Shown: piece after piece, positions 46,381-61,443 of the stretch
Numbering within the stretch: position 1 is the stretch's first letter
How the letters are laid out: the number at the start of each line of letters is the position of its first letter
NCBI GenBank assembly: GCA_964540625.1
Contig: CAZINO010000001.1
Location: forward strand, 3,448-67,447
DNA from: an uncultured Lishizhenia sp.
GTDB taxonomy: Bacteria > Bacteroidota > Bacteroidia > Flavobacteriales_D > Crocinitomicaceae
DNA length: 64,000 nucleotides
Direction of reading: 5' to 3'
Notes under the pieces: generated by a model
What the model was told of the DNA's origin: nothing
Seen by the model: only the letters and a program-made list of their open reading frames with translations
Databases searched by the model: none
Program-made: the position numbers and the translations under genes

Positions 46381-46408
46381 ATAAAAAAAGCCATCCGAAG
46401 ATGGCTTT
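46381..46408 (-). terminator. Intrinsic terminator with cUUCGg tetraloop; left copy of a 29-nt identical direct repeat (46380-46408)
   Basis: Minus-strand RNA AAAGCCAUC-UUCG-GAUGGCUUU followed by U7. Identical in sequence to 61537-61565. Confidence 0.85.
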
Positions 46409-46415
46409 GGGAATT

Positions 46416-47639
46416 TTAATTTTTGATGAAGGGGTAGGGTTGGTTTTTTAAGTATAAGTTGTATTGGCCTGAGGCCAATCCATCAATTAGGATTACAGCT
46501 TTTAAGCCTGACTCAAATCCTTTCATGATACATTTTCCTGCCAAATCATAAATTTCATAACCTTCTATAGACCTATCTGAAATTACATGCAATTTACTAG
46601 CAGTAGGATTTGGATAGATCTCTAATTTCAACATTGAGGCCTCTTCTAATCCAATGGTTGAAATATTCGCAACAGCAGAATTCTGACAGCCGTTGTCTGC
46701 CGTAACAGTTAGCATCACCGGATAGGTATCCGCACCAGGAAAATTATGAGTTGGATTGGGTACAGTTGAAGAGGTACCATCGCCAAAATCCCAGGAATAA
46801 GTGGTGATGATACCGCCAGAAAATGTAGAGGTATTGGTAAAGATATACTCTGTTTGCGAAGAACCTTGAACAGTTGTAAAACTGGCAATAGGGCCTTCCA
46901 TAATTTCAATCGGAAGCGTTTGAGTATAAGTGCAACCATCAACGGTGTTTACTTCAAGTGTAACGACATAATTTCCAGCACTGGCATAATGCGTAGAGTC
47001 TGACTGCATGTTTGAGGTAGCACCATTACCAAAATCCCAGTTATAATTACTGATTTGCTTACCGGAATACAAAGAATCATAAGTAAATGTGATTTCGTTG
47101 TTTGTGCAAGTGGGTAAAGGGCTCGTCACTTGTATGGGCGCAGGAACTGGCGCAGTGAACTTATAGCTACTCACAATTCCGTCAAATAAAGTAGTCACAT
47201 TCGAAAAGTCTTGGCTATTGATTAAATTACATGCTGAAGAAAGCTGAAATGTAAGTTTAACCACTGGAATATTGATTGGGATATTAAAAGTTATAGAGGT
47301 ACCTGAGGACGTATTGCTTAGGTAAAAATTGGCTTGGTTAAAATTACTGAATGCATCTAAACCTGTAACCAATGAGGTGGTAGAAACATAGGTAAGTTCT
47401 GTTTGATTGAATTGAAACCAAAAATCAAAGGAGTTGATATTTGGGTTGCTTGATTTGAGTAGGACTGGTATTTCTATATAATTTGAACCCGCATTACTGT
47501 AATAATTGGCATTTAATATATCAAAGACAATTGTGTCGTTGAGGGCTTTATTTGATTGCGCAATAATTGGTTTAGAGGCTTGACCAAAAACATGGGCACT
47601 CATAAAAATAGCTGCTGCAAGTGATAAAATATTTTTCAT
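46416..47639 (-). CDS. Secreted protein: cohesin-like module + 2 PKD domains + T9SS type A sorting domain
   Basis: PKD motifs NWDFGNGATS...AGNYVVTLEVNTVDGC and SWDFGDGTSS...ADTYPVMLTVTADNGC. CTD LEIYPNPTASKLHV...GQYNLYLK. N-terminal module YIEIPVLLKSSNPNINSFDFWFQFNQTELTYVS. Confidence 0.8.
   Translation of the reverse strand: MKNILSLAAAIFMSAHVFGQASKPIIAQSNKALNDTIVFDILNANYYSNAGSNYIEIPVLLKSSNPNINSFDFWFQFNQTELTYVSTTSLVTGLDAFSNFNQANFYLSNTSSGTSITFNIPINIPVVKLTFQLSSACNLINSQDFSNVTTLFDGIVSSYKFTAPVPAPIQVTSPLPTCTNNEITFTYDSLYSGKQISNYNWDFGNGATSNMQSDSTHYASAGNYVVTLEVNTVDGCTYTQTLPIEIMEGPIASFTTVQGSSQTEYIFTNTSTFSGGIITTYSWDFGDGTSSTVPNPTHNFPGADTYPVMLTVTADNGCQNSAVANISTIGLEEASMLKLEIYPNPTASKLHVISDRSIEGYEIYDLAGKCIMKGFESGLKAVILIDGLASGQYNLYLKNQPYPFIKN
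47160..47540 (-). other. Cohesin-like module of the 407-aa protein (aa about 34-160)
   Basis: Pattern x-[IV]-x-IPV-x(8-12)-[IV]-x-x-[FY]-D-F-x-[FL]-x-[FY]-[DN]-x(3)-L, as in type I cohesins. By-eye call only. Confidence 0.4.
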
Positions 47640-47660
47640 CTTTTAAGTTTTTATTTACAA

Positions 47661-47687
47661 GAAAAGCCGCGTTCCGAAGAACGCGAC
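47661..47687 (-). terminator. Hairpin with cUUCGg tetraloop between the 1207-aa and 407-aa genes (terminator or attenuator)
   Basis: 7-bp stem cgcgttc (47668-47674) / gaacgcg (47679-47685). The minus-strand RNA loop is UUCG, followed by CUUUUCUU. It lies only 28 nt upstream of ATG 47639. Confidence 0.6.
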
Positions 47688-47714
47688 TTTTTTGTAAATG
47701 AGTTGATCAAATGA

Positions 47715-50700
47715 TTAATCAATAATAACCTTCTTCATTGTGCTGAAGTTTGCATTTTGTACGCGCACAAAATAAACTCCTGCATTTACGTTTGGAAGGG
47801 TAATTGCTAATTTACCTGAAGCTGGGATTTGACCAACTTCAGCAATTAAGCGGCCGTTCATGTCACAAACCGATACAGATGCACCTTCAACAGATTCAAC
47901 AGAGAATGTACCGTTGTTCGGGTTAGGATAAACTTGAACGTTCAACACATGTTGGATGGCTTCTGAAGATTTTGCAAACTTCATATCTACTGGCTTACCA
48001 TTCAAGATAGCAAGTTCAGTTTGGAAGTTTTTCTCAGATAATTGACCGTTTTCAGTGGTAACGATAAGTTCAGCTACATTGGCACCAGTTGCAAAGTTTG
48101 AAACATTGAAACCAGAGAAACGCAATGTCTGGTCAGCGTTGTTCATGAATGCAGTTGCCTCTGCAGTTTGGTCTAAAGACGCAACCTCTGAGTAGTTTGC
48201 ATTGTTGAATTTCACTGCAAAGTCTAAAGCATTTACTTGCTCAGTAGCTTCAAAAGAAACCGGGATGCGGAAAGTATTACCTTCTTGTTGAGCAGCAGTG
48301 AGGTCAAGAACAACAGCGCCTTCTGACTTCAACAATCCATCTGCAGTGTAGGTTGCATAGCTTGCGTTTACATCACCTAACATGATACCATAGTAAGTCT
48401 CTGTTTGGATTTCAGGACATGTTGCATAGTTACTCACGTTTGCAGCAATGCTGAAAGGAACGACTGGAACTTTTGCCTTCGAATACCCTACGTTATCGTT
48501 CGCTGGGAAAGTAGCTGAAATTTGGTAGGCAGCGTTACTTGTAGCTGTTGTTTTATCAACAAAGATCCAGTCTTTCGAAGGATGACCATTAGACACCCCA
48601 GCTGCAGAATAGTTCCAAGCCTGACGATACTCGGGAATAGCCAAAGTTGCACGTTGCTTGATTTGAGAAATATCACCAGCAGAAACAACACCATCTAGGT
48701 TGACATCAAGTGCAATGATCTGGTACACGTTTGGTGTAAAGCTACCATTCAACAACAATGTTTTGCCTAGAACGGCATCGGCAGCATTCACCAGCAACTG
48801 TACTGAGTTATTGTTAGAAATGTCACGAGAAATATTCAATTTCTGACCGTTGGTAAGTACGTGTGTAAATACGCCAGTAGTATTTGGCTGAACAGCTGTA
48901 GCAGAAATAAATGTAACTGGTGTTGCACTTAACGCAGCTGTTGTGGCAGTTGATAAGGTAACGGTAGTTCCTGAAATACTAGCCACAGTAGCGGTTGAAG
49001 GAACACCGTCGGCAACAACTTTCATACCAGCAACAACACCCGTAACAGTATTTGGAATAGTTAATGCAGTAGATGCAGAAGTAGCAGTTCCTGTTGTTGT
49101 AACGGCACCGTTAACGTTAGTAATCAAGAATGCGTTCGGGTTAGACGCGTTATACTTTATAGCTTGGTTATCAGACCAGAACAATAACGTGGCCGGGTAA
49201 TTCTGATCTTTGATAGAATACGCTTTGCCTGAATTAGCTGTTTTATTCAAAACTCCTGTAATGTAACTTTCTTGGATAGAAGAAATTGCAACAGTTGCTG
49301 AATCTAAACCTGCGAAAGCACTTGTTTTGGTAAACTGAACCGTGAAGATATCGGCGTTGGTTCCATTGAACTCAGCATTAGCTGGCGCATTACCGTTGAA
49401 GTTCAAAGAAATTTGCATGGTGCCGTTACTACCACTTGGTGTACCGATTGCAGTTGCGGTTTCAATATGCGAAGCATTTGAATAAAGTGTATTAGCTACA
49501 AATACATTTCCTGTAGGAGTCAATTTGGAAGCATCGTACGTAAGCGAAATGTCATAACCAATTACATTATCAACAGTGTATGTATTCGAAACGGCAACTG
49601 GCATTAAGTAGACCGTTTGATCACAGTTTTGAGTAACGTTTTTCACTTTGTATGGAAGCGCGTTCGGGTCAGCGATATCCAAAGTCACAGCAGCTGAAGT
49701 TGCTGTTGCTTGGAAGTTATCTGTTGCAATGGCAGTAAAAGTTTTGACACCTGGTGTGCTTGTCCAAGCATAAGACCAAGTATTACCAGATGTATTTGTA
49801 CCAGCTCCAACCAAGGTGCCGTTGACGTAGAAATTCACACCACTAATACCATCCACGTCTGTGGCTGTGGCCGTAATTGTAATTACTGTAGGGGCAGAAA
49901 TCAATTGGCTAGCTGTAGGATTTGTGAGTGTAACCGTTGGAGGGGTGTTTGCAATCACGTTCATAGAGGTTGTTGCAAAAGAACCTGTTAATCCAAGATT
50001 GTCTGTCGCTTTTGCTTGAACTGAATACGTACCATTCACGTTAGAAGGAACCGCATACGTTTTAGAATATGTACTACCTGAAAGCGTACCGTTACCGATT
50101 GACACAGAGTTAACAAAGAACTCAACAGATGCAACTGTACCATCGACGTCGTTAGCTGAACATGTAAAAGTAACGTTAGAACCTAGATAAGCTGTTGCCG
50201 GGGCAGTTAAGCTAGAAACGGTAGGCGCTTGGTTAGCCGCAACTGTAAAGTTATGGGCTGTAGATGTTGTAGTAGCACAATCATTGTCTGTTGCTTTGGC
50301 TGTAATCGCATGCGCACCATTTACAGAAGCAGTGTAAGAATAAGTGTAAGTTGAACCCGTGTTTGTAACTGTACCAGTTAATAACACACCATTATCATAG
50401 AATTCAACACCAGTAATAGTTCCGTTGTCGTTAGCAGTTGCGGTAAATGTCATTGACGTTCCTGTAATGATACCAGAAGTTGATGGCGATGAAGCCAAAG
50501 TAATTGTAGGAGGTGTATTTGCAACAAGCGTTAATGTTGAATGTGTGAAGTTTGTACTTCCACTTGGTGGATTAGAAGCATAATAGTTTTCAACAGCACC
50601 AGAGGTAGCATTTTGGATTTGAACATTTAATGCAAAGCTCAACTGACCAGTTGTTGTAAATTGGCCTATCAATACCATATTTGAAGATGTAGCACCAGTA

Positions 50701-51338
50701 ATACCACCTAAAACGGCCAAGGCACCATCAGTAATCGTTATTGAACCACTCGTTGAAGCATCTAATGCCGCAATACTTCCGAAACCACCTAAGCCATTTG
50801 TGGAAATGTTCGGAGACACAGGTAAATAACCATCTTGTGCACCAGATCCTTTAATTGGTAGACCAAAACATCCACCAGGGTTGTTGGTTAACAAACCATT
50901 TGATTGCGTAAAAACTGATCCATCAGTATCTTGAGACTTCAATACGCCTACTTTGCCAGTTTGTGTCATTCCCATGGTAAACCAAGAATCTAAAGAAGAA
51001 TGCGTATTTGCATTATTTCCTGATGAAAGTGTTGGTGTTGTTTGTACTGAGTTCGAAGGGTGATTGTAAAAACCTGTGGTAGAGTTTACAGTAAGAGAAT
51101 TACCAGGTACTGCAAAGATTTGATTTAACTTCCAACCAGCATTCATGTCAACAAATACGCGATAGGTAACAGAAGAAGTGGTAAGTGGAACCGCCGCACC
51201 TGTCTCTTGGCCAGCTACGTCAGCAGAATTAGCTTGATAGTATTTTTCAACTACTATGCCTTGTAACCCAACTTGCGAAAACGCTGTGCCTGCAAGCAGA
51301 AAAAAGCATAAATTTGTAAGTAAACGAAGTGTTTTCAT
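47715..51338 (-). CDS. 1207-aa surface protein: VEKYY domain + 3 Ig-like repeats + cohesin-like module + dockerin-like loop + second cohesin-like module + T9SS type A sorting domain
   Basis: Signal peptide, then the N-terminal domain shared with ORFs at 55114, 59523 and 60614. Repeats PPT[IV]TL...A.A.D.DG.I..VEF[YF]..G. IGYDISLTYDASKLTPTG. DVNLDGVVSAGD. CTD VYPNPNNGTFSV...AGVYFVRV. Confidence 0.85.
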   Translation of the reverse strand: MKTLRLLTNLCFFLLAGTAFSQVGLQGIVVEKYYQANSADVAGQETGAAVPLTTSSVTYRVFVDMNAGWKLNQIFAVPGNSLTVNSTTGFYNHPSNSVQTTPTLSSGNNANTHSSLDSWFTMGMTQTGKVGVLKSQDTDGSVFTQSNGLLTNNPGGCFGLPIKGSGAQDGYLPVSPNISTNGLGGFGSIAALDASTSGSITITDGALAVLGGITGATSSNMVLIGQFTTTGQLSFALNVQIQNATSGAVENYYASNPPSGSTNFTHSTLTLVANTPPTITLASSPSTSGIITGTSMTFTATANDNGTITGVEFYDNGVLLTGTVTNTGSTYTYSYTASVNGAHAITAKATDNDCATTTSTAHNFTVAANQAPTVSSLTAPATAYLGSNVTFTCSANDVDGTVASVEFFVNSVSIGNGTLSGSTYSKTYAVPSNVNGTYSVQAKATDNLGLTGSFATTSMNVIANTPPTVTLTNPTASQLISAPTVITITATATDVDGISGVNFYVNGTLVGAGTNTSGNTWSYAWTSTPGVKTFTAIATDNFQATATSAAVTLDIADPNALPYKVKNVTQNCDQTVYLMPVAVSNTYTVDNVIGYDISLTYDASKLTPTGNVFVANTLYSNASHIETATAIGTPSGSNGTMQISLNFNGNAPANAEFNGTNADIFTVQFTKTSAFAGLDSATVAISSIQESYITGVLNKTANSGKAYSIKDQNYPATLLFWSDNQAIKYNASNPNAFLITNVNGAVTTTGTATSASTALTIPNTVTGVVAGMKVVADGVPSTATVASISGTTVTLSTATTAALSATPVTFISATAVQPNTTGVFTHVLTNGQKLNISRDISNNNSVQLLVNAADAVLGKTLLLNGSFTPNVYQIIALDVNLDGVVSAGDISQIKQRATLAIPEYRQAWNYSAAGVSNGHPSKDWIFVDKTTATSNAAYQISATFPANDNVGYSKAKVPVVPFSIAANVSNYATCPEIQTETYYGIMLGDVNASYATYTADGLLKSEGAVVLDLTAAQQEGNTFRIPVSFEATEQVNALDFAVKFNNANYSEVASLDQTAEATAFMNNADQTLRFSGFNVSNFATGANVAELIVTTENGQLSEKNFQTELAILNGKPVDMKFAKSSEAIQHVLNVQVYPNPNNGTFSVESVEGASVSVCDMNGRLIAEVGQIPASGKLAITLPNVNAGVYFVRVQNANFSTMKKVIID
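47964..48326 (-). other. Cohesin-like module 2 of the 1207-aa protein (aa about 1005-1125)
   Basis: TFRIPVSFEATEQVNALDFAVKFNNANYSEVAS...QTLRFSGFNVS...NVAELIVTT. By-eye similarity to cohesin strand order. Confidence 0.4.
48648..48707 (-). other. Single dockerin/EF-hand-like Ca-binding loop plus helix in the 1207-aa protein (aa 878-897)
   Basis: DVNLDGVVSAGDISQIKQRA fits D-x-N-x-D-G-x(5)-D followed by an amphipathic helix. Confidence 0.45.
49203..49661 (-). other. Cohesin-like module 1 of the 1207-aa protein (aa about 560-712)
   Basis: VYLMPVAVSNTYTVDNVIGYDISLTYDASKLTPTG...GTMQISLNF...DIFTVQFTKTS parallels VEIPVYF...IANCDFVFRYDPNVLEIIG...IIVFLF...VFAKIRATVKS of clostridial type I cohesins (recalled from memory). 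Confidence 0.45.
49674..50516 (-). repeat. Three tandem Ig-like (bacterial Ig, about 92 aa) protein repeats in the 1207-aa protein
   Basis: Each copy reads PPT[IV]xL...F[TS]A.A.D.[ND]G.I..VEF[YF].NG...G......Y.Y......G.[HY].[IV].A.ATDN. Confidence 0.6.
50523..51272 (-). other. VEKYY domain, copy 4 (1207-aa protein, aa 23-272)
   Basis: GLQGIVVEKYY..VTYRVFVDM..GFYNHP..LDSWFTMG..GVLKSQDTDGS..ITDGALAVLGG..VLIGQFTTTGQLSFALNVQIQ. Confidence 0.7.
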
Positions 51339-51353
51339 AATATTTTGTTTTTA

Positions 51354-51398
51354 AAAAGAAGCGCCCACCGAAAAAGATGAAAAGAACAGTGGGCGCTT
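51354..51398 (-). terminator. Hairpin between the 727-aa and 1207-aa genes (terminator or attenuator)
   Basis: 10-bp stem aagcgcccac (51359-51368) / gtgggcgctt (51389-51398) with a 20-nt loop, followed on the minus-strand RNA by CUUUUU. It lies only 20 nt upstream of ATG 51338. Confidence 0.55.
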
Positions 51399-51422
51399 TG
51401 CCTTTATATTTAGGACTTATTA

Positions 51423-53606
51423 TTAATTACAGCTTGTACCGAATGCAGGAGCAAAGATCAAGAAGTCTGCTGTGTTGGTAGTACCATCACCATTCAAGTC
51501 TGTAGGGCAAGCCTGAACACCAGTTGTTGAACCAAGTATTTGTGAGTAAGACCAATCAGACAACCAATTATCACCAGCTACTGAAGAAAACGCACCACGG
51601 TAATTAGCTGGCTCAAAGAAACCATCCATTGGCGCTTGTGAACAACCAGAGCCTAGCGTAAGTGCAGGATTTGGTACTACATCGTTCTTTTGAGTTACTG
51701 CATTGGTTCCACCATTGATTGTAAAATCATAATTGAAGCCAGGCAATGTGTTACCTGTTACAATTACATTTCCGTCTGCACCGAACTGGGTTGTTGAAGC
51801 AGCAGGCGTAACAACTGAAGTTGTTGCGGCAAGCGATGACGCGCCAATTACGAATGGATTCGCCATTCCAATAAAGTGATTACATTTTACAATTAAGCTA
51901 GGTGTAGGTGTAGAACCAATTCCTTCAAGGGCAGCCAATGATGAACCAGACTGCGGTATAGTAGACCAATACTGAAAAGAGTTACCTTGACCTGCTGCAC
52001 CACGGTTAGTTAAAGAATTCTCTAAATTCAAACCATTTTTAAAATTCGCAAAAACAGAATTTGCAATTGTACCTTGTGCAGCTTCTTTCATGTTAATGGC
52101 AGCCAAACCACGGTTATCAGCAGAACCTGTAGCTTTAGCATTCCCCATAATTGTCGCATTGTAAATTTTTGGGTTGGACTTTAATGCAGCATTCGAAGTG
52201 TTGTCATCAGAATCACACTCAAAGCCATTATCGTTATCGAAAGAAATAGCATTCGTTTCTGTAGAAGATCCTGCCTGCTGCGCTTTCATTCCAAATAGAA
52301 ACTGTGCACGTCCTGACCAACCTAGATCGTAGTCATACATATCATCGTTACCGAAAAGCGTCGTGCAGTATTTGAGGTCAACAGTACCACCAAAAAGCTC
52401 GATATTATCATCGGCACAAGAAACAATCTCGATGTGCTCAATTTTAGTACCACGACCTACAGATGCAAGCGTTAAACCGTTGATCTCAGAACCAACAAGA
52501 AGGTTTGCACCAGAGTGGCGAATCGAAACATAAGTCATGACACCTGAGTTATCATTATCATTAAATGTAGCTGTTGAAGTATAATATGCACCTACATAGG
52601 ATGCGACAGACCCACTAGTTCCTGATACAGGAGCAGAACCAGAATTAGGTGCTACGTAAGTGATAGAAGTGAAGTAACCTGTTTGGCCACCATTTGGATA
52701 TGTTCCGTCAAAGGTGATTTCTGCACCAGCAGCAATTGCACCTGTAAGAGCAGCGGACAAGGTTAATTGCTTTGCTGAAATACTCAAAATGGTGGTACCT
52801 GCAGGAATACCTGAACCGGACACAGCCTGACCTTGAACAACATAACCAGGAGCATTACTTGCCAATTCGATTTTTGTATTACCTATTCCATTGCATCCAG
52901 AGGCCGGAGTAGCAGATGTTGCCAATAGTCCAAATGTATATGCACCTGAAGGCGAGGTAGCTTGAACTGTTCCTGATGGAACATTAAGAGCCACACCAAA
53001 CTGATCTTGTGGATAAGAAGAAGCAAAGCCTTCTAATACACCTAATCCGTCTGCAATAGCCATTTTACCACCTTGTCCCGGAATGAATGGACCATTTGCA
53101 GCAAGTGTTAAATTGTTTGATGCTGTACCGCAAATCAAGATACCACCCCACTTACCTTTATTTGCAACTCCATAAGAACCATTCAATGGATCTGCTGCTG
53201 CTGTAAATACAATTGGGCAATCTTCAACCCCAGGAGCGATAATTTTACCACCTCTTTCAATGATCAAGGCGCGAGCTGCAGCAACATTTGTCCCTGCATC
53301 AGAGGCTTTAATTACTGTGCCAGGTTCAATCGTAATTGTGGCACCAGAACCGATATATAGCTTTTCATCAAGAGTCCAAATTGTACCACATGTTAAAGTT
53401 ACATTTCCAGAAGTCAATTCTTTACCGTAAGCAGCTGCGGGAAGATTGGTCCAAGATCCTACTGAAGTGATCGAAGCAGAAGGCCTTGAAGAAACCGTCG
53501 GACAGCCACAGGCGGCACCTAAGTTTTGTTGAGCAAACAAGGAGTTGCTCATTGTGGCTAATCCGAGCATGGAAAATAAGCCAACAAGTAAATTTCTTTT
53601 TTTCAT
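51423..53606 (-). CDS. 727-aa secreted beta-helix-like protein with a Cys-bracketed dockerin-like C-terminus and no T9SS CTD
   Basis: Signal peptide. Gly/Thr/Asn-rich repetitive beta pattern with HIEIVSCADDNIELFGGTVDLKYC...GNDDMYDYDLGWSG. Near the C-terminus ANYRGAF...NWLSDW. Terminal ACPTDLNGDGTTNTADFLIFAPAFGTSCN. Confidence 0.8.
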   Translation of the reverse strand: MKKRNLLVGLFSMLGLATMSNSLFAQQNLGAACGCPTVSSRPSASITSVGSWTNLPAAAYGKELTSGNVTLTCGTIWTLDEKLYIGSGATITIEPGTVIKASDAGTNVAAARALIIERGGKIIAPGVEDCPIVFTAAADPLNGSYGVANKGKWGGILICGTASNNLTLAANGPFIPGQGGKMAIADGLGVLEGFASSYPQDQFGVALNVPSGTVQATSPSGAYTFGLLATSATPASGCNGIGNTKIELASNAPGYVVQGQAVSGSGIPAGTTILSISAKQLTLSAALTGAIAAGAEITFDGTYPNGGQTGYFTSITYVAPNSGSAPVSGTSGSVASYVGAYYTSTATFNDNDNSGVMTYVSIRHSGANLLVGSEINGLTLASVGRGTKIEHIEIVSCADDNIELFGGTVDLKYCTTLFGNDDMYDYDLGWSGRAQFLFGMKAQQAGSSTETNAISFDNDNGFECDSDDNTSNAALKSNPKIYNATIMGNAKATGSADNRGLAAINMKEAAQGTIANSVFANFKNGLNLENSLTNRGAAGQGNSFQYWSTIPQSGSSLAALEGIGSTPTPSLIVKCNHFIGMANPFVIGASSLAATTSVVTPAASTTQFGADGNVIVTGNTLPGFNYDFTINGGTNAVTQKNDVVPNPALTLGSGCSQAPMDGFFEPANYRGAFSSVAGDNWLSDWSYSQILGSTTGVQACPTDLNGDGTTNTADFLIFAPAFGTSCN
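51426..51509 (-). other. C-terminal dockerin-like module C-x2-D-x-N-x-D-G-x5-D-F-L-x-F-x(6-7)-C (aa 700-727)
   Basis: CPTDLNGDGTTNTADFLIFAPAFGTSCN is a 12-residue EF-hand-type loop plus helix enclosed by two Cys. I recall the same layout in C-terminal 'GC-type dockerin' anchors of other phyla. Confidence 0.5.
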
Positions 53607-53642: not shown

Positions 53643-53669
53643 AAAAAAAAGTTGGCTGTGAAGCCAACT
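53643..53669 (-). terminator. Intrinsic terminator ending the six-gene operon
   Basis: 8-bp stem agttggct (53650-53657) / agccaact (53662-53669), 4-nt loop, followed on the minus-strand RNA by U8 (A-run 53643-53650). Confidence 0.8.
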
Positions 53670-53752
53670 TTATCTGTTTAAAAAGTTTGATGTCTATTTG
53701 AATTTGCTCAGGATTAAGCCAATGTTAGTATCAACAATTTGAGTCTTTAATT

Positions 53753-54409
53753 TTAAAAATTATAGAGCACGGCGGTCTGGAAAGCCAGTTGATATGGGCG
53801 TTGTGGCACATTACTTGCGCCTAGAGAGTTCAGAGAATAGCTTAACATTAAACTTGGCTTGATGCTCCATTTGAGCGTGACTGGTAGCTGGGCACCCAAA
53901 TGAACAGCCGCACTGAATTGCCAAGTTGTATTTGGTGTGTATGCCGTTGTCTGCACTTCATTCCAACCCTCTTGCAGAATATAAGACATCTGGCTACCGA
54001 TTAGTTTGGATGACAGCACAGAAAAACCTACGAATGGCTGCCAAGTTTCGGTTATTACATTGTATTCCATTCCTAAAGGTATACTCATATAATTCAAAAT
54101 ATGCTGATAAGTATTGATACCAGGCAGACTATTTGCTAGAAAATTATAACGGCAATTCTGAAAGCGTAAACCACCCACAAATGTCAATTCTCTGGTCAAA
54201 CGACGCGCATATGTCAGGCCAAGTTCTTGAGCCATACCGCCGGTTTGTAAACTATCCATGATGCGGTTGAAACCAGGATTTTCCGTAGATTTCTGGTAAC
54301 TCATGGCTGTATAACCCAATTGATAAAAAGCACCAATTTGATTTTTTTCTTGCACCTGTGCAAAAGCGATAGTGCCTAAGAAAACGAAGAATAAGAGTAG
54401 CTTTTTCAT
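53753..54409 (-). CDS. Small outer-membrane beta-barrel (porin-family-like) protein
   Basis: Signal peptide (IAFAQ), alternating beta-strand pattern, C-terminal aromatic residue (...AVLYNF). 218 aa. Confidence 0.6.
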   Translation of the reverse strand: MKKLLLFFVFLGTIAFAQVQEKNQIGAFYQLGYTAMSYQKSTENPGFNRIMDSLQTGGMAQELGLTYARRLTRELTFVGGLRFQNCRYNFLANSLPGINTYQHILNYMSIPLGMEYNVITETWQPFVGFSVLSSKLIGSQMSYILQEGWNEVQTTAYTPNTTWQFSAAVHLGAQLPVTLKWSIKPSLMLSYSLNSLGASNVPQRPYQLAFQTAVLYNF

Positions 54410-54412
54410 GAT

Positions 54413-55117
54413 TTAATTTTTGACGCAACGGATACTCATGCCATAACGCTGATCTGCAAATTGTCTGAAAATTTGAGTGCGTTGGTGGCTGATTGAACGA
54501 TAAATAGCTTTGTTTGGCTGCTGAGTCGCCGTCCAAAAATAAGCTTCTAAACCATTTGCTGAAATTTGGCCATTGTATAAAACAACACCACCCGGATTGA
54601 TATTCAAAGCGTATTTGTTATTTCCAAAATGAATGCTGGCTGTTGGCCAGTTGTTCGAATTCTGGGGTAGAATTCCATTAACCTCATCTTGCCCGCGCCA
54701 AGCCATTAAGTCTGTTTCAGCACTATCCATACCGATAGAACGCTCTAGTTTTTTCCAATCTTCGTCGGTTGCAATATGCCAACCTTCGGGGGCTAACCCT
54801 CTGGGGTCAAGTACGGTTGCATAATTATAAAGTTGACCATAAAGGCTATCTGCAATAGTTTTGTACCCTGGACCTGCTTGCCAACCAGTTGTATCATTTG
54901 TTGCAAAAAAAGGGATTAAAGTACCATCGTTAAAACGCGTTGTTTTGAGATTCTCGCACATCCACCATTGGTCATTTATTTTAACCGTTTGATAGGAATT
55001 ACCATCAATATCCGTAACTGTACCATATTCCAATACGATTTCTTTGGGTGTATCTTTGTTGCACGAGACCAAGCCAACAAGACCTAAAAAAATAAGTACG
55101 ACGATTGAATTTTTCAT
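54413..55117 (-). CDS. Lipoprotein with Fibrobacter succinogenes major paralogous domain (TIGR02145-like)
   Basis: Lipobox LVSC. DIDGNSYQTVKINDQWWMCENLKTTRFNDG...YGQLYNYATV...APEGWHIATDEDWKKLE...FWTAT...SIRCVKN. Confidence 0.8.
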   Translation of the reverse strand: MKNSIVVLIFLGLVGLVSCNKDTPKEIVLEYGTVTDIDGNSYQTVKINDQWWMCENLKTTRFNDGTLIPFFATNDTTGWQAGPGYKTIADSLYGQLYNYATVLDPRGLAPEGWHIATDEDWKKLERSIGMDSAETDLMAWRGQDEVNGILPQNSNNWPTASIHFGNNKYALNINPGGVVLYNGQISANGLEAYFWTATQQPNKAIYRSISHQRTQIFRQFADQRYGMSIRCVKN

Positions 55118-56448
55118 TTTGTCTTGATAAGAATTTCTGATTTTGTGAGCTCACCAACTGTAAAGTCAAGGAAATACACGCCTGCTTCTTGTTCAGCCAG
55201 GCCCATATTTATCTCTAAATTATTTTCTGTAGCCATACTTGTGTCTGTTGCCAAAACAACACCGAAAGCATTATATAATTTCCAAGAAATTTGTTGTCCT
55301 TCAAAATTACCGTTGGCTACAAGTTGTGTCTCGCCGTCAGTAGGATTCGGCACCATCTTGATTTCAAAGTTACTCTGCCATAATTCTGGGCAAACTACAG
55401 CAATATCTCTTCCACCGCAAGCCCCAGGGTAACAACAAAGCCCCGGAACATTGATGTTTACAGATGGGTCATAGTTACAAGCATTGGTGTCCATACAACC
55501 CATTACAACCGGTGTGATACATGCGCCATCAAGTAGACAGGCAAATGCTGGGCTAAATTCTAGATAATTTGGATCGGTACACCCACACTGAAATGGATAG
55601 CTTAAAAATGGGCTGAATACTTCGTTTGCAGCAAGTAAGGTATCTTTAGCTACATACTTCAAAGTACTTGGCGTCCCATTTGTATTTACTTCTACTTCGA
55701 TATTTAATTCAAAAGATAGTTCTCCTGCTGTTGTGAGTTGAGCAATAAGAACCTGATTCTCTTGTGGATCAACACCTGTTACACCACTATTTTGCATTAA
55801 AAACTCCTCGGAGTTGAATGAAGTTCCGCTGGTTACTGATCCGAAAATTGTATTGTCTTGACCTGTGGCAATGTCTACTAGACCAACTGTAAGCCAATTA
55901 CTTGGTACATTTACCATTGTATCCATTCCATCGGCAGTCGGTAATGAAATCCCTAATTGCGTGTCTGAATTATTAAGTAGCCCTGAAGCAATACCCGCGC
56001 TCCCACCATCGTTATTTGTACCGCCGATAAAAGAACCATCGGTATCAGCAACTTTAGGAATCCCAAAATATGTTTTTCCAGCTTGCGTTTTTGTAGTTTG
56101 GCCGAGAGTCATCCAGGTATCCAAAGCTACCAAGCCTTCACTGTAACGGTTTTTTAAAAACTCTTTGGCATATGTTTGTCCATCAGTTGCATGATTATAA
56201 AAAGGTGCGGTGCTTTCGAATACAACTGGATGTCCAGTACTGCCATAGACAGATTTCAAACGCGTGTTCGGCAATAAATCAATGTAGATCCTGTAAGTAG
56301 TGGTTCCAGCTTGAATTGTTCCTCCAGTAACATCTGTGGCGTCATTAGCATCTGTTATATAATATTTTTCAACGATAACCTTTTCCAATTGCGCCTTTAA
56401 AAGTGAAAAGCTACAAATGGCAATCAATGTGTAAAGTATTTTATTCAT
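55114..56448 (-). CDS. 444-aa secreted protein: VEKYY domain + Cys-rich linker + T9SS type A sorting domain
   Basis: LEKVIVEKYY..TTYRIYIDL..PFYNHA..LDTWMTLG..ADTDGS..VLIAQLTTAGELSFELNIEV. 10 Cys in aa 288-353. CTD MVPNPTDGETQL...AGVYFLDF. Confidence 0.8.
   Translation of the reverse strand: MNKILYTLIAICSFSLLKAQLEKVIVEKYYITDANDATDVTGGTIQAGTTTYRIYIDLLPNTRLKSVYGSTGHPVVFESTAPFYNHATDGQTYAKEFLKNRYSEGLVALDTWMTLGQTTKTQAGKTYFGIPKVADTDGSFIGGTNNDGGSAGIASGLLNNSDTQLGISLPTADGMDTMVNVPSNWLTVGLVDIATGQDNTIFGSVTSGTSFNSEEFLMQNSGVTGVDPQENQVLIAQLTTAGELSFELNIEVEVNTNGTPSTLKYVAKDTLLAANEVFSPFLSYPFQCGCTDPNYLEFSPAFACLLDGACITPVVMGCMDTNACNYDPSVNINVPGLCCYPGACGGRDIAVVCPELWQSNFEIKMVPNPTDGETQLVANGNFEGQQISWKLYNAFGVVLATDTSMATENNLEINMGLAEQEAGVYFLDFTVGELTKSEILIKTK
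55390..55587 (-). other. Cys-rich linker with two copies of a GC[TM]D-x(2-3)-[AY]-x-NY/-like motif
   Basis: QCGCTDPNYLEFSPAFACLLDGACITPVVMGCMDTNACNYDPSVNINVPGLCCYPGACGGRDIAVVC. Confidence 0.5.
55594..56388 (-). other. VEKYY domain, copy 3 (444-aa protein, aa 21-285)
   Basis: See the alignment blocks listed in findings. Confidence 0.7.
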
Positions 56449-59400
56449 TATTGAATTTTATAAGAGAAACCAAATTGGAAAGTAGTTCCATAACGGAAGC
56501 GGTCAAAATCAACATAAGAGCCGTCCGAAAGTTGATATGCCCTGCGAACAGGTGCATTAAGTATATCTCTCACAGTTAAGCTCATGGCGTAATGTTTGCC
56601 AAGTGTTTTTGAAACTTTAAAATCAACAGTATGGCGAGGCATTTCGTATACATTGGCAAAGCCTTTTAAAATACCGGCAATTACCAAGCGTGGGCCTTGA
56701 ACATTGTATGAAACAGTTGCTGTGAGGCCAAGTGAATCTGAATTATAGCTTAGAATTCCATTGACAATGTATGGCGCTTGCCCAAACATGGTGCGCACTA
56801 CAGTATCAACGGGGAAATACTCAATTTGATTATTATTCAAGATGATAAAGTCCTTTCTAACAAACTGAGATTGCGACTTAACAACCGTCACATTAGACCT
56901 AAACTCCAGGTGCTTACCAAAATTTTTACCGACCTCAAATTCTAGTCCAGCTACGTATGAATTCTCGTTGTTGTCCCAGGTGATACCTGAGCTACCAAAA
57001 CCCATTTCAATGTGGTTCAAGAAGGTCTTGTAAAAAGCACTGACAGAGAAATTGTCTTTATTTGCAAAGTATGACTCATAACGCAAGTCGTAATTGGTAA
57101 TGTTGGTCAGCTTCAAGTTAGAATTCCCATAAATTAAAGTACGGAATTCATTGTCATATACAGCCGCATCGTTCATTTCGCGAATGTTTGGGCGTGCTAC
57201 ACTTTTGCTGTAATTCAAACGCAAATTGGTGATGGTATTCTTTTCGGATTGAAACTTAAAAATCATACTTCCCGACGGCAAGAAAGACCATTCATCTAAA
57301 ATCCCCGGATTGATGATTGGGTAGCCCGGTACACTCACCCTTCGGCCGTCATTGCGCTCATAACCGAGCACATGGTATTTATATACATCTGAAAAAAGTG
57401 CAACGTGCTCAGCGCGTAAACCGCCATTGAAGCGAATGATTTTATTGAACTCAAAATCCAAAAGGCCATATGCTGCAGTAATGGCATTGGTACCAATGGT
57501 GTGGTTCCAATCCCAATTGCGAGGATCGTAATAATAATTGAGGAAGCCGTTTTGCATGACCATTTGGTTCGTATCCAAAAATGCATCCAAATCTTCATTT
57601 TGAAGTGTGGTCGGAATCGCATTACCAGCCATCAAAAAGTACTCCTCCATTTTAGAGTTACGGTCGGTACTTTGAAAAGCACCACCAAATTTGAGCTTTC
57701 GGATCAGCTTCACGCTGTCAGCAGCTAATGGCACTTCGAGTGATAATCGAGAATCAAAAAGGTTTTCATCTAAATAGCGGTTATAGCGGCGTATGCCATC
57801 GCCTGCATTCGGAGAAAACTGGTAACTACCTATGAGTTCATTAAATGAGGAGAATGCAACATATTCTGTCAACTTAAAATCTGGCACGACGCTAGAACCG
57901 TCGGTGTAAGAAGCATTAGCATCTATTTTGATACGCAACCTCGGAACATAGTGCTGAGAGGCATATTGGTAAATGCGCTGCTGACGCTGCTCATAAAAAA
58001 TATTCTTTCTTACACTCAACTCTTCATTGGATTCTCCGATGGGTTGAGTCATAAATGAAGCCACATCATTCGTCCCTGAAACATTTGGCATGAGAAGTAA
58101 TGAAAACTTATTGTTGTCATTGATTTTATAGGCCAAATTCAACAACATGCTCCACGAATTTATCTCGCGACTCATGAGTGCATCATCGGTAAACAAGATT
58201 TGATAGTCGAGGTCTTCCGGACCAATTCTTTGAGAAATTCCATTAGGGTCGAATCGCACACTGTTTCCGTATCTAAAACCAAAGATGTAGCCCAAGGGCT
58301 TCCCAAGGAAATCTACTTGGTTACCGATACTGAAACTTTGCGTGAAATTGATGGGCGCTCTTCTAAACTTTGTGTTCCAAGAATTGGAAAAACCATTATT
58401 ATAACTTGTGCCATTGGGATTGATGAGCGACCAGGCCTGCGGCTTCAACGTTGAATTGAAGGTGGTAAGGGCAGCCAAAACAGCCGTTGGGTCATTAACT
58501 TGCGACGGATTAAGCAGTCCCAACTCAACCATACCCAATGCCATGTAGGTTTGGTTTTCATTACTCGCATCTTGCCATCCTGTCACACCTAAATTGGCAT
58601 AAAATTCGCCTAAACCTAGTGCAACCATTGTTTGGTAATTGCTTGGACTTAGATTTGGTTTGGCAAAATTGATACCATCATTGAAACCTCTAAAACCGTT
58701 GTCAAAGCCTAACCAGTCTGTGCCGCTTCTGTCAGAAGTAATGAAATCCTTGAAAGTAGACTGCACGTTGTAACCAAACTGAGACTCCACATTCACCATC
58801 AATTTATCCGGATAATCTTTAGTCTCGACTGAAATATAAGCCCCGGCCCAATCGCCAGGTAAATCTGGGGCTTGTGTTTTGGAGATTACTATATTATCAA
58901 TTAATGCCGTAGGGAAAATGTCTAACTTGATGTTATTAGTCAGTGGGTCTAGCGTTGGAATGCGTGAACCATTGAAATTGGTGCGAATGTAGCGGTCTCC
59001 AATACCACGCACGGTAATCATACCGCCGTTGGTAGAAACACCAGAAACCCTAGCTACAGCATTGGTAACGTTGGCATCGCCGGTTTTCTTCATGGTTTCG
59101 CTCGAAATGTAGTCAATCGAAACAGGTGAACTCACCTTCACGCGCTCCATATAATAGTCATTTGCTTTGGTGGCTTTACGCGTTACGGTGGTTCCTTTTA
59201 CTTCTTGAATTTTTTCGCGTTCTTTCATAGTGAAGTCTTGGACCACGACTTCATTATTTTGAAGTTGTAATACTTTGGATAGTGTATCATAACCTAAAAG
59301 TGTGATGCGCAATTGATGCGGTTTGGCATCTGGGAACTTCAAGGAATAAAGGCCATCCATGTCGGTTTTACCAAGAAATCCGGAGGTATCAGAAAGAATT

Positions 59401-59519: not shown

Positions 59520-59522
59520 GAA

Positions 59523-61432: not shown

Positions 61433-61435
61433 GTG

Positions 61436-61443
61436 CAAGTTTA
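61436..61443 (-). promoter_or_regulatory. Near-consensus -7 box TAAACTTG directly upstream of the first operon gene
   Basis: The reverse complement of caagttta (61436-61443) is TAAACTTG, with one mismatch to TAnnTTTG. It lies 3 nt before ATG 61432, the same geometry as the perfect box before the hydrolase gene at 15469. Confidence 0.3.

What the first reader, a model, noticed from the sequence alone, without database searches (positions are those of the whole stretch)
46416..53606. Cohesin-like and dockerin-like modules spread over three consecutive surface proteins, suggesting a T9SS-anchored scaffold
The 1207-aa T9SS protein has two modules whose strand pattern matches type I cohesins. Examples are VYLMPVAVS...VIGYDISLTYDASKLTPTG...MQISLNF...IFTVQFTKTS and FRIPVSFEATEQVNALDFAVKFNNANYSEVAS...LRFSGFNVS. 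The 407-aa T9SS protein downstream has a third (YIEIPVLLKSSNPNINSFDFWFQFNQTELTYVS). Two dockerin/EF-hand-type loops fit D-x-N-x-D-G-x5-D plus a helix. One is internal to the 1207-aa protein (DVNLDGVVSAGDISQIKQRA). The other forms the extreme C-terminus of the 727-aa protein (CPTDLNGDGTTNTADFLIFAPAFGTSCN, bracketed by two Cys). Established knowledge: cohesin-dockerin pairs assemble cellulosomes, and related modules occur widely outside cellulosomes with mostly unknown function. Inference: the 727-aa beta-helix-like protein has no T9SS CTD and no lipobox. It could be held at the surface by docking onto the cohesin-like modules of the two T9SS-anchored proteins.
Basis: partly seen in the sequence, partly recalled or inferred. 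Interest (0 to 1): 0.65.

Follow-up and report, generated by a model that had tools for sequence, protein, structure and literature searches.

The report
Cohesin-dockerin surface assembly on T9SS proteins
Three neighbouring genes of a freshwater Flavobacteriales bacterium encode two surface-anchored proteins with genuine cohesin modules and a beta-helix enzyme ending in a one-repeat, disulfide-bracketed dockerin. This looks like a cellulosome-style docking system moved to a Gram-negative outer membrane, but no binding has been shown.

Summary
The three minus-strand ORFs exist as described.

**Cohesins.** The 1207-aa protein has two cohesin modules and the 407-aa protein has one.
- The window's own Pfam Cohesin scores are below threshold, and COH2 gets no hit.
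- The AF2 model (pLDDT 89) matches solved cohesins (TM about 0.7).
- Orthologous modules at the same positions pass Pfam's Cohesin cutoff.

**Dockerins.**
- The internal dockerin is a real type-I-like dockerin (profile E 2e-6 to a C. thermocellum dockerin).
- The last 28 residues of the 727-aa beta-helix protein are one dockerin repeat between two invariant cysteines.
- That tail is conserved in essentially the whole family. It is a half-size variant of NCBIfam's "GC-type dockerin".

**Docking idea: plausible, unproven.**
- In 37 of 45 informative loci the beta-helix gene sits next to the cohesin genes.
- In a variant cluster the third cohesin is tethered by two such repeats instead of a T9SS CTD.
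- Single-loop dockerins are known to work in Ruminococcus.
- Against: seven lineages keep the tail without neighbouring cohesins.
- Against: the scaffold's own dockerin is a rival partner.
- Against: how a protein without a CTD crosses the outer membrane is unexplained.

Verdict: new variant of a known kind, moderately high interest.

The parts
51423..53606 (-). 727-aa secreted right-handed beta-helix protein (Pfam PF28492 Beta_helix_4 family). It has a Sec-type signal peptide, no T9SS CTD and no lipobox.
   Evidence: ORF. No hits in the local Pfam or NCBIfam. Homologs at 97-99% identity are tagged PF28492 Beta_helix_4. AF2 pLDDT 78, pTM 0.80. Foldseek matches polysaccharide lyases, depolymerases and GH110 at E 1e-5 to 1e-4.
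51426..51509 (-). Half-dockerin tail, residues 700-727: CPTDLNGDGTTNTADFLIFAPAFGTSCN. One 12-residue Ca-binding loop plus a helix, bracketed by two invariant Cys, at the extreme C-terminus after a flexible linker (residues 692-699).
   Evidence: Conserved in 120 of 120 top homologs, with invariant Cys, Asp and Gly positions in 118 distinct tails. Profile hits dockerin 2y3n_B at E 1.4e-12. The same profile retrieves proteins of which 81 of 107 hit NCBIfam dockerin_GC and 88 of 107 hit Pfam Dockerin_1. Window copy scores: dockerin_GC 16.3 bits, Dockerin_1 15 bits. pLDDT is below 50 for the linker and 41-61 for the tail.
47715..51338 (-). 1207-aa T9SS-anchored scaffold-like protein. Order: signal, N-terminal domain, 3x Big_7, COH1, small beta domain, dockerin, conserved POST module, COH2, type A CTD.
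49170..49661 (-). COH1, cohesin module 1 (residues 560-723).
   Evidence: Pfam Cohesin 14.2 bits, E 0.052. All-beta in the AF2 model. Foldseek cohesin hits with about 155 aligned columns. Ortholog modules in P0067 and P0053 contain above-threshold Pfam Cohesin hits.
48642..48800 (-). Internal dockerin (residues 847-899). The first Ca loop is degenerate and the second is canonical (DVNLDGVVSAGD). Three helices in the model.
   Evidence: Dockerin_1 26.8 bits alone against a cutoff of 22.9. Orthologs P0045, P0072 and P0073 score 26.7-28.6 bits. Profile hits 4fl4_A at E 1.9e-6, plus CelD, XynY and ScaB dockerins. Alignment.
48324..48638 (-). POST module (residues 901-1005). The most conserved stretch of the family, always between the dockerin and COH2. 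Function unknown; possibly an X-module-like stabiliser.
   Evidence: Invariant columns cluster here. pLDDT is above 90. The DOC-POST-COH2 order is kept in all homologs.
47967..48320 (-). COH2, cohesin module 2 (residues 1007-1124).
   Evidence: No direct Pfam hit. Orthologous modules pass Pfam Cohesin: P0049, P0058, P0068. Profile A4 best PDB hit is cohesin 2xdh at E 0.0033. Beta-sandwich in the model.
47718..47933 (-). T9SS type A C-terminal sorting domain of the 1207-aa protein.
   Evidence: TIGR04183 48.9 bits, PF18962 48.7 bits.
46416..47639 (-). 407-aa T9SS-anchored protein: signal, COH2-type cohesin module, 2x PKD, type A CTD.
47154..47540 (-). COH2-type cohesin module of the 407-aa protein (residues 34-162).
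   Evidence: Pfam Cohesin 16.3 bits, E 0.011. COH2 HMM E 1e-20. phmmer E 1e-21 to the COH2 position of P0067.
46419..46619 (-). T9SS type A CTD of the 407-aa protein.
   Evidence: TIGR04183 28.8 bits (cutoff 23), PF18962 27.9 bits (cutoff 27).
53648..53671 (-). Terminator-like hairpin (10-bp stem plus T run) between the OM beta-barrel gene and the beta-helix gene. Upstream boundary of the three-gene unit.
46387..46408 (-). Terminator-like hairpin (9-bp stem plus T run) directly after the 407-aa gene. Downstream boundary of the unit and of the cluster.
53753..61438 (-). Conserved upstream part of the nine-gene cluster: 274-aa N-terminal-domain protein, 364-aa N-terminal domain plus CTD, 1023-aa TonB-dependent receptor, 444-aa N-terminal domain plus CTD, 234-aa FISUMP lipoprotein, 218-aa OM beta-barrel.
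   Evidence: Synteny holds in 65 genome loci.

Best explanation
The three genes encode a cohesin-dockerin assembly built on type IX secretion (T9SS) cargo.

**Shown**
- The 1207-aa and 407-aa proteins carry type A CTDs and, between them, three true cohesin homologs.
- The 727-aa beta-helix protein, a probable polysaccharide lyase or hydrolase, has a signal peptide, no CTD, and ends in one dockerin repeat stapled by a Cys-Cys bracket.
- The genes are adjacent, conserved and expressed.

**Inferred**
- After T9SS export, the two CTD proteins sit on the outer face of the outer membrane and act as scaffolds.
- The beta-helix enzyme is held there by Ca-dependent binding of its half-dockerin to one of the cohesin modules. 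Two tails may share one cohesin, as in Ruminococcus flavefaciens group-2 dockerins.
- The scaffold's internal dockerin links scaffold molecules to each other, or links the 1207-aa protein to the 407-aa protein.
- The assembly sits beside a TonB-dependent receptor, a FISUMP lipoprotein and an OM barrel encoded in the same cluster. It probably processes a polymer whose products that receptor imports.

**Not explained**
- How the beta-helix protein crosses the outer membrane is unknown.
For: - **Modules are genuine.** Foldseek gives cohesin hits at probability 1.00 and target TM about 0.7. Orthologous modules pass Pfam Cohesin and Dockerin_1 cutoffs (mapped). Profile-to-PDB hits are 2xdh for COH2, 4fl4_A for the dockerin and 2y3n_B for the tail.
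- **The tail is a selected, partner-type module.** It is invariant across the family, sits after a low-confidence linker, and belongs to the GC-type dockerin repeat class. That class is found at the C-termini of very diverse enzymes.
- **Linkage.** 37 of 45 loci have beta-helix, then COH1-DOC-COH2 protein, then COH2-PKD protein. Hairpins bracket the three genes. RNA contigs cross the 727/1207 gap.
- **Fusion and substitution evidence.** P0229, P0244 and P0221 are signal peptide + 2 tail-type repeats + COH2. P0200 and L072 are COH2 + 4 repeats. P0229 is encoded inside the same cluster, right after the 1207 ortholog. So a cohesin of this cluster can be tethered either by a CTD or by this dockerin type.
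- **Precedent.** Single-loop dockerins bind cohesins. The isolated C-terminal half of the B. cellulosolvens Cel48 dockerin keeps wild-type affinity (PMC12270676).
Against: - No binding was tested, and no multimer model could be run.
- Seven of 45 loci keep the tail although the neighbouring T9SS protein has no cohesin or dockerin (Ig/PKD plus MopE repeats instead).
- The window's own cohesin modules score below Pfam's cutoff, and COH2 gets no hit.
- The COH1 profile finds no cohesin by sequence. COH1 against COH2 by hhalign is not significant.
- The tail is half a domain and fails both curated dockerin cutoffs.
- The scaffold has its own dockerin, which could occupy the cohesins.
- The mirror-tree test gave no specific tail-cohesin signal: partial r 0.52 for the 407-type cohesin against 0.46 for the non-cohesin POST module.
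- The topological problem is unsolved. The cohesins are exported by the T9SS, but the beta-helix protein has no CTD, and no precedent for co-export was found.
Confidence: 0.5

Rival explanations
1. The cohesin modules are occupied by the scaffold's own internal dockerin, in cis or between 1207-aa and 407-aa molecules, building a surface lattice or fibre. The beta-helix tail does something else: lone EF-hand or dockerin repeats tend to pair, so it may drive Ca-dependent homo-oligomerisation of the beta-helix enzyme.
For: - The internal dockerin is the only full dockerin in the unit.
- DOC-POST-COH2 is an invariant, rigidly modelled block, with pTM 0.80 for a five-domain segment.
- Seven lineages keep the tail without neighbouring cohesins.
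- Two-repeat variants of the tail with only an outer Cys pair exist (P0205, P0222). This shows that two repeats naturally pack together.
- Beta-helix depolymerases found by Foldseek are often oligomers (the oligomer point is my own knowledge).
Against: - The P0229 adaptor (2 tail-type repeats + COH2) sits in the same cluster. That argues this repeat type is a tether to something in the cluster, not only an oligomerisation device.
- GC-type dockerin repeats decorate many unrelated enzymes, as a docking tag would.
- There are three cohesins for one internal dockerin, so free sites remain.
Confidence: 0.22
2. There is no docking at all. The cohesin-fold modules are passive beta-sandwich spacers or carbohydrate-binding domains of surface adhesins. 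The tail is a disulfide-stapled Ca-binding cap that only stabilises the C-terminal end of the beta-helix.
For: - Window cohesin scores are below threshold.
- Non-cellulosomal cohesin and dockerin modules are widespread, mostly with unknown function (Peer et al. 2009, as cited in PMC6487960).
- The tail persists without cohesin neighbours in seven lineages.
Against: - The tail is separated from the beta-helix by a linker of pLDDT below 50, so it is not packed as a cap.
- The same repeat is appended to unrelated catalytic domains.
- Recurrent fusions of this repeat with COH2-type modules, and the in-cluster adaptor, are hard to explain without an interaction system.
Confidence: 0.13
3. Chance resemblance: the strand patterns and D-x-N-x-D-G loops are coincidental matches in low-complexity surface proteins.
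Against: Structure search, orthologs above Pfam cutoffs, profile E-values of 1.9e-6 and 1.4e-12 to solved dockerins, and family-wide conservation exclude chance.
Confidence: 0.01

Closest known systems
Cellulosome type I cohesin-dockerin system (Clostridium/Acetivibrio/Ruminococcus)
   Same: Cohesin beta-sandwich modules sit on non-catalytic, cell-anchored scaffold proteins. A dockerin Ca-loop/helix module sits at the extreme C-terminus of an enzyme-like protein. One scaffold carries both cohesins and a dockerin. A cluster variant has an adaptor (dockerin + cohesin).
   Different: The host is Gram-negative. Scaffolds are anchored through T9SS type A CTDs, not SLH domains or sortase. There is one dedicated enzyme rather than dozens. 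The enzyme's dockerin has one repeat and a disulfide bracket. No cellulase or CBM is present. The unit is linked to a TonB-dependent receptor. Binding is not demonstrated.
Ruminococcus flavefaciens group-2 truncated dockerins (Duarte et al., JBC 2025, PMC12270676)
   Same: A natural dockerin with only one Ca-coordinating loop. In that system it is functional, and two units can occupy one cohesin.
   Different: There is no specific sequence relationship. The tail here is shorter (28 aa), is closed by a Cys-Cys bracket, and belongs to the GC-type dockerin repeat class.
NCBIfam NF041540 GC-type dockerin domain-anchored protein
   Same: The same Cys-bracketed repeat (C-P-x-D-x-N-x-D-G-...-D-F-L-x-F-...-G-x-x-C) at the extreme C-terminus. 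The tail profile retrieves this family (81 of 107 top representatives).
   Different: The model is 67 positions, corresponding to the two repeats seen in the hits. The window tail has one repeat and scores 16.3 bits against a cutoff of 29. I found no paper on this family.
Non-cellulosomal cohesin of Archaeoglobus fulgidus (PDB 2xdh)
   Same: It is the best sequence-profile match of the COH2 type (E 0.0033, near full length) and is among the Foldseek hits. It is a cohesin outside any cellulosome.
   Different: It is archaeal, with a different domain context and no T9SS.
T9SS type A CTD cargo anchoring (e.g. Porphyromonas gingivalis gingipains, Flavobacterium johnsoniae adhesins)
   Same: The 1207-aa and 407-aa proteins have N-terminal signal peptides and type A CTDs that pass curated cutoffs.
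   Different: Known T9SS cargo are not described as cohesin scaffolds that recruit proteins lacking a CTD.

Membership tests
Cohesin (Pfam PF00963) | Sequence score at or above the Pfam gathering score (24.1 bits) | tested here: not met
   Window modules: COH1 14.2 bits, 407-aa module 16.3 bits, COH2 no hit. Orthologous modules at the same positions do pass (27.4-38.2 bits). Membership therefore rests on homology by transitivity.
Cohesin (Pfam PF00963) | Nine-stranded jelly-roll beta-sandwich fold like solved cohesins | tested here: met
   An AF2 model of pLDDT 89 matches many solved cohesins at probability 1.00 and target TM 0.69-0.73. The tool does not report which query module aligned. About 155 aligned columns points to COH1. 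COH2 is supported separately by the profile hit to 2xdh.
Cohesin (Pfam PF00963) | Binds a dockerin partner | not testable with these tools
   No multimer prediction or experiment was available.
Dockerin type I (Pfam PF00404): internal module of the 1207-aa protein | Score at or above the gathering score (22.9 bits) | tested here: met
   26.8 bits when the 70-aa segment is scored alone, 19.3 bits in the full protein. Orthologs score 26.7-28.6 bits. Profile hit to 4fl4_A at E 1.9e-6.
Dockerin type I (Pfam PF00404): internal module of the 1207-aa protein | Two duplicated F-hand segments, each with a 12-residue Ca loop | tested here: inconclusive
   The second loop is canonical (DVNLDGVVSAGD). The first is degenerate (N-N-S-V-Q-L-L-V-N-A-A-D), although helix 1 is kept. 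This holds family-wide.
Dockerin type I (Pfam PF00404): tail of the 727-aa protein | Two duplicated F-hand segments, and a score at or above the gathering score | tested here: not met
   One repeat only. 15 bits, matching profile positions 35-51 of 57. The repeat itself is dockerin-like.
GC-type dockerin (NCBIfam NF041540): tail of the 727-aa protein | Score at or above the curated cutoff (29 bits) over the 67-position model | tested here: not met
   16.3 bits, E 0.0095. 26 residues span model positions 1-66, so the middle of the model is missing.
GC-type dockerin (NCBIfam NF041540): tail of the 727-aa protein | Cys-bracketed Ca-loop/helix repeat at the extreme C-terminus | tested here: met
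   Cys700 and Cys726 are invariant, and the protein ends C-N-stop. The tail profile retrieves dockerin_GC proteins.
T9SS type A sorting domain (TIGR04183 / PF18962) | C-terminal domain above the curated cutoff | tested here: met
   1207-aa protein 48.9 bits and 407-aa protein 28.8 bits (cutoff 23). The 727-aa protein has no hit.
Beta_helix_4 (Pfam PF28492): 727-aa protein | Match to the family model | tested here: inconclusive
   The model is absent from the local Pfam copy. Homologs at 97-99% identity carry the precomputed tag. The AF2 fold is a right-handed beta-helix.
Cellulosome | Many dockerin-bearing plant-cell-wall CAZymes assembled on a cohesin scaffoldin with a CBM | tested here: not met
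   Only one dockerin-tailed enzyme and no other cohesin or dockerin modules in the 64-kb window. No CBM or cellulase family was detected.

The most novel reading that the evidence does not exclude
GC-type dockerin repeats are a general alternative to the T9SS CTD. On this reading, a protein lacking a CTD binds, in the periplasm, a cohesin module on CTD-bearing cargo. It is then carried through the SprA translocon as a folded complex (piggyback export) and stays docked on the surface. The unit found here would be the minimal case: one enzyme with a half-dockerin and two anchored scaffolds, coupled to a TonB-dependent receptor. The thousands of GC-dockerin-tailed peptidases, nucleases and hydrolases would use the same route.
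Probability: 0.12. Interest if true: 0.88.

Novelty: new variant of a known kind. Interest (0 to 1): 0.62.

Why it matters
Cohesin-dockerin assembly is understood almost entirely from Gram-positive cellulosomes. Cohesin and dockerin modules elsewhere are catalogued but functionally blank.

This unit is compact, conserved and expressed, and it is testable:
- The cohesins sit on T9SS-anchored proteins.
- The candidate ligand is a 28-residue, disulfide-stapled single dockerin repeat.
- A natural adaptor variant shows the same repeat type tethering a cohesin of the same cluster.

If the interaction is real, three things follow:
- A docking-based layer of Bacteroidota surface organisation would be defined.
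- The uncharacterised GC-type dockerin family (17,546 representative proteins match the repeat profile) would gain a function.
- A very small Ca-dependent affinity tag would become available.

It would also raise the question of how partners without a CTD cross the outer membrane.

Tried and rejected
- **COH1 profile against PDB sequences.** No cohesin hit; only a spurious potassium-channel match at E 0.67.
- **hhalign COH1 against COH2.** Probability 8.5%, not significant. I treat them as two cohesin subtypes, each linked to Pfam Cohesin separately.
- **Partial Mantel (mirror-tree) test of tail against each module over 42 loci.** All pairs correlate at the minimum p. The 407-type cohesin is highest (0.52), but POST (0.46) and the dockerin (0.43) are similar. 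The control does not remove phylogeny, so the test is inconclusive.
- **Apparent beta-helix genes ending in a T9SS CTD (L063, L065).** Artefacts of overlapping ORFs; both end in the Cys-loop.
- **Weak cohesin signal in the seven exception proteins.** None, even with HMMER filters off.
- **Homology search with the COH2 profile.** Only 13 short hits, little added.
- **Context of P0200.** Only a 2.8-kb contig was found.
- **Literature.** Nothing on 'GC-type dockerin', T9SS piggyback export or T9SS-linked cohesins.
- **Intramolecular packing of the internal dockerin.** I could not find out whether it packs on COH1 or COH2 in the AF2 model, because coordinates and PAE are not returned.
- **Tail as a lipoprotein or T9SS signal.** Rejected. 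It is too short for a CTD fold, and no lipobox follows the signal peptide (read from the sequence).

Full report
**1. What is in the sequence**

- The 1207-aa protein has a T9SS type A sorting domain (TIGR04183 48.9 bits, cutoff 23) and three Big_7 Ig domains.
- The 407-aa protein has two PKD domains and a type A CTD (28.8 bits).
- The 727-aa protein has no hit in the local Pfam or NCBIfam.

The three genes are the distal end of a nine-gene, same-strand cluster (61438-46416). Upstream lie:
- a 274-aa protein and a 364-aa T9SS protein;
- a 1023-aa TonB-dependent receptor;
- a 444-aa T9SS protein;
- a FISUMP lipoprotein;
- a 218-aa OM beta-barrel.

Four proteins of the cluster share an unannotated N-terminal domain of about 260 aa. 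Terminator-like hairpins on the coding strand lie just upstream of the 727-aa gene (53671-53648) and just after the 407-aa gene (46408-46387).

**2. Are the modules real cohesins?**

Scored directly, the window's modules fall below Pfam's Cohesin gathering score of 24.1 bits. COH1 (residues 560-723) scores 14.2 bits at E 0.052. The 407-aa module (34-162) scores 16.3 bits at E 0.011. COH2 (1007-1124) gets no hit. Three further lines settle the question.

- **Structure.** An AlphaFold2 model of residues 556-1135, built on 48 homologs, has mean pLDDT 89.4 and pTM 0.80. It resolves five units: an all-beta COH1, a small beta domain, a three-helix dockerin, a conserved irregular module (POST) and a beta-sandwich COH2. 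Foldseek against the PDB returns mostly solved cohesins of types I, II and III and the archaeal non-cellulosomal one. These have probability 1.00, E about 1e-6 and target TM 0.69-0.73. The tool does not say which query module aligned. About 155 aligned columns fits the 160-residue COH1.
- **Homology by transitivity.** Orthologous modules at the COH2 position pass Pfam Cohesin (P0049 30.4, P0058 32.1, P0068 28.3 bits). Extra N-terminal COH2-type copies score 36.7-38.2 bits (P0047, P0050). At the COH1 position P0067 scores 27.4 bits. My module HMMs confirm that these stretches are the orthologous modules, for example COH1 HMM against P0067 residues 164-319 at E 9e-52.
- **Profile search.** The COH2-type profile, which includes the 407-aa module, has the Archaeoglobus fulgidus cohesin 2xdh as its best PDB sequence hit (E 0.0033, near full length).

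The 407-aa module is clearly of the COH2 type (phmmer E 1e-21). COH1 and COH2 are not significantly related to each other by hhalign. The COH1 profile alone finds no cohesin by sequence. I therefore treat them as two divergent cohesin subtypes.

**3. The dockerins**

*Internal module (residues 847-899).* It scores 26.8 bits on Pfam Dockerin_1 when scored alone (cutoff 22.9) but 19.3 bits within the full protein. Orthologs pass the cutoff. Its family profile hits canonical type I dockerins in the PDB: 4fl4_A at E 1.9e-6, then the CelD, XynY and ScaB dockerins. Family-wide, the second Ca loop is canonical (DVNLDGVVSAGD) and the first is degenerate.

*Tail of the 727-aa protein (residues 700-727, CPTDLNGDGTTNTADFLIFAPAFGTSCN).*
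- All 120 best homologs end the same way.
- In 118 distinct tails the two Cys, the Asp at loop positions 1, 5 and 12, and the Gly at position 6 are invariant.
- The tail profile's best PDB hit is the Pseudobacteroides cellulosolvens GH48 dockerin 2y3n_B (E 1.4e-12). The tail aligns over 23 residues to each of that dockerin's two repeats. Other dockerins follow, and ordinary EF-hand proteins score lower.
- The whole-protein family profile has exactly one PDB sequence hit, the same dockerin, at the tail.

So the tail is one dockerin repeat, which explains why it fails the curated cutoffs. It scores 15 bits on Dockerin_1, matching half the profile. On NCBIfam dockerin_GC it scores 16.3 bits against a cutoff of 29, with the middle of the model skipped.

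In the AF2 model of the whole protein (pLDDT 78), residues 692-701 have pLDDT below 50 and the tail has 41-61, with a helix at 712-722. That is a flexible linker plus a module not packed on the beta-helix. The body is a right-handed beta-helix closest to polysaccharide lyases, phage depolymerases and GH110 (E 1e-5 to 1e-4). Close homologs are tagged Pfam PF28492 Beta_helix_4.

**4. The repeat class**

An exhaustive HMM search of 1.84 billion representative proteins with the tail profile found 17,546 proteins at E up to 0.001. Of 107 top representatives, 88 hit Dockerin_1 and 81 hit dockerin_GC. Typically two Cys-bracketed repeats sit at the extreme C-terminus of unrelated catalytic domains:
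- C25, C11 and M10 peptidases;
- endonuclease I;
- GH9;
- GDSL lipases;
- PQQ dehydrogenase;
- giant adhesins.

Only 5-6 of the 107 also have a T9SS CTD. This is how a docking tag is distributed. I found no paper on this family.

**5. Linkage between tail and cohesins**

A scan of 185,579 species genomes returned 65 loci. Nearly all are freshwater Flavobacteriales MAGs (Crocinitomicaceae, Cryomorphaceae). The closest is an uncultured Lishizhenia at 85% identity. Metagenome look-ups show the same nine-gene order down to 53% identity of the beta-helix protein.

Of 45 loci with at least 6.5 kb downstream, 37 have the COH1-DOC-POST-COH2-CTD protein and a COH2-PKD-CTD protein next to the beta-helix gene.

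The strongest evidence comes from fusion proteins.
- P0229, P0244 and P0221 are complete secreted proteins of about 210 aa. Each consists of a signal peptide, two tail-type repeats and a COH2-type module, with no CTD.
- P0200 and L072 have a COH2-type module followed by four repeats, and P0200 passes both curated dockerin cutoffs.
- P0229 is encoded inside the same cluster type, immediately after the 1207 ortholog. A COH2-PKD-CHU_C protein with its PorP/SprF partner follows it.

So a cohesin module of this cluster can be tethered either by its own T9SS CTD, as in the window's 407-aa protein, or by this dockerin type. That is the logic of an adaptor scaffoldin.

Metatranscriptome contigs from four runs cover the cluster, and the beta-helix gene has the highest depth. 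Two contigs cross the 727/1207 intergenic gap. These runs can contain DNA, so this is only consistent with co-transcription.

**6. Precedent**

Duarte et al. (JBC 2025, PMC12270676) showed that R. flavefaciens group-2 dockerins naturally have a single Ca loop and are functional. Two units can occupy one cohesin. The isolated C-terminal half of the B. cellulosolvens Cel48 dockerin, the best PDB match of the tail here, keeps wild-type affinity. A one-repeat dockerin is therefore mechanistically credible. The Cys-Cys bracket plausibly replaces the stabilisation normally given by the second repeat (inference).

**7. What argues against docking, or is missing**

- Seven of the 45 loci have, in place of the cohesin proteins, a single T9SS protein. 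It carries the shared N-terminal domain, Ig/PKD domains and MopE-type repeats, and shows no cohesin or dockerin signal even with filters off. The beta-helix tail is nevertheless fully conserved there. Cohesins could lie elsewhere in those genomes, but I could not check.
- One locus (L070) has the loop without either Cys.
- The scaffold's own dockerin is a rival ligand. I could not read whether it packs on a cohesin in the model.
- A partial Mantel test over 42 loci gave no specific tail-cohesin co-evolution signal.
- The beta-helix protein has only a Sec signal, yet the cohesins are on T9SS cargo outside the outer membrane. The T9SS does export folded proteins through the 36-strand SprA barrel (PMC9251779). 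Co-export of a docked partner is therefore conceivable, but no precedent was found.

**8. Verdict**

- I put about 0.9 on the modules being true cohesin and dockerin homologs.
- I put about 0.5 on the tail docking to a cohesin of the neighbouring proteins.
- The main rival (0.22) is that the cohesins serve the internal dockerin and the tail mediates oligomerisation.
- A purely structural reading gets 0.13.

Relative to what is known, this is a new variant of a known kind. The known pieces are cellulosomes, non-cellulosomal cohesins and dockerins, the NCBIfam GC-type dockerin model and truncated Ruminococcus dockerins. The new combination is cohesins on T9SS-anchored proteins, a half-size disulfide-stapled dockerin on a dedicated beta-helix enzyme, and embedding in a TonB-receptor cluster. 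Searches of the literature found no description of cohesin-dockerin assemblies linked to the T9SS.

Noticed in passing
window 50487-51275 (1207-aa), 55114-56448 (444-aa), 59523-60617 (364-aa), 60614-61438 (274-aa): Four proteins of the cluster share an N-terminal domain of about 260 aa (motifs VVEKYY...TYR[IV]..., LDSW.T.G, L[IV][AG]Q.TT.G.LSF.LN[IV]Q[IV]). It has no Pfam or NCBIfam model and no PDB sequence relative. It is kept even in lineages where the cohesin part is replaced.
   Followed up: partly
window 48819-49127 (1207-aa residues 738-840) and 52713-52880 (727-aa residues 243-298): A small beta domain with the motif G..V.G.GIP.GTT[IV].SIS..T.TLS.A.T occurs in the scaffold between COH1 and the dockerin. 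It also occurs as an insertion in the beta-helix protein (HMM E 1.8e-5). Short-form beta-helix orthologs (about 570 aa) lack it, and L065 has several copies.
   Followed up: partly
window 48324-48638: The POST module between the dockerin and COH2 is the most conserved part of the 1207-aa family, with many invariant residues. It has no family assignment and ends in a dockerin-like GDVN motif. It may act like an X-module supporting the dockerin.
   Followed up: no
L031, L034, L037, L040, L054, L056, L058 (downstream of the beta-helix gene): In seven lineages one T9SS protein replaces the cohesin-bearing proteins. It has the shared N-terminal domain, Ig/PKD domains and, in four of the seven, Cu-binding_MopE-type repeats. 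The beta-helix tail is unchanged.
   Followed up: yes
L070:9917-11917 and L070:17023-18997: The most divergent beta-helix ortholog (39% identity) keeps the Ca loop but has lost both bracketing Cys. The same locus carries an Ig-repeat protein ending in two Cys-bracketed repeats among extra COH2-CTD genes. The ORF appears split, which may be a frameshift.
   Followed up: partly
P0205, P0222 (representative proteins): Two-repeat variants of the tail exist in which only the outer Cys pair is kept (C...FGTT-linker-PTD...FGTxC). P0205 is a Beta_helix_4 fragment, so both one- and two-repeat tails occur within the family.
   Followed up: no
window 51423-53606: The beta-helix family has nine invariant cysteines, including a C-G-C at the mature N-terminus (residues 33-35), and acidic motifs (NDDM.DYDLGW, DNDNGFE.DSDDN) that may form the active or metal site. 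In four metatranscriptomes it is the most highly represented gene of the cluster.
   Followed up: partly
window 53753-59519: A TonB-dependent receptor (TonB-Xanth-Caul type with a CarboxypepD_reg N-domain), a FISUMP lipoprotein and a small OM beta-barrel are invariably linked with the beta-helix gene. They suggest an uptake system of unknown substrate that is not a SusC/SusD-type PUL.
   Followed up: no
L073:10915-14504: In the adaptor-containing cluster variant, the distal COH2-PKD protein ends in a CHU_C (type B) CTD and is followed by a PorP/SprF gene. The cohesin scaffolds can therefore use either T9SS CTD type.
   Followed up: partly
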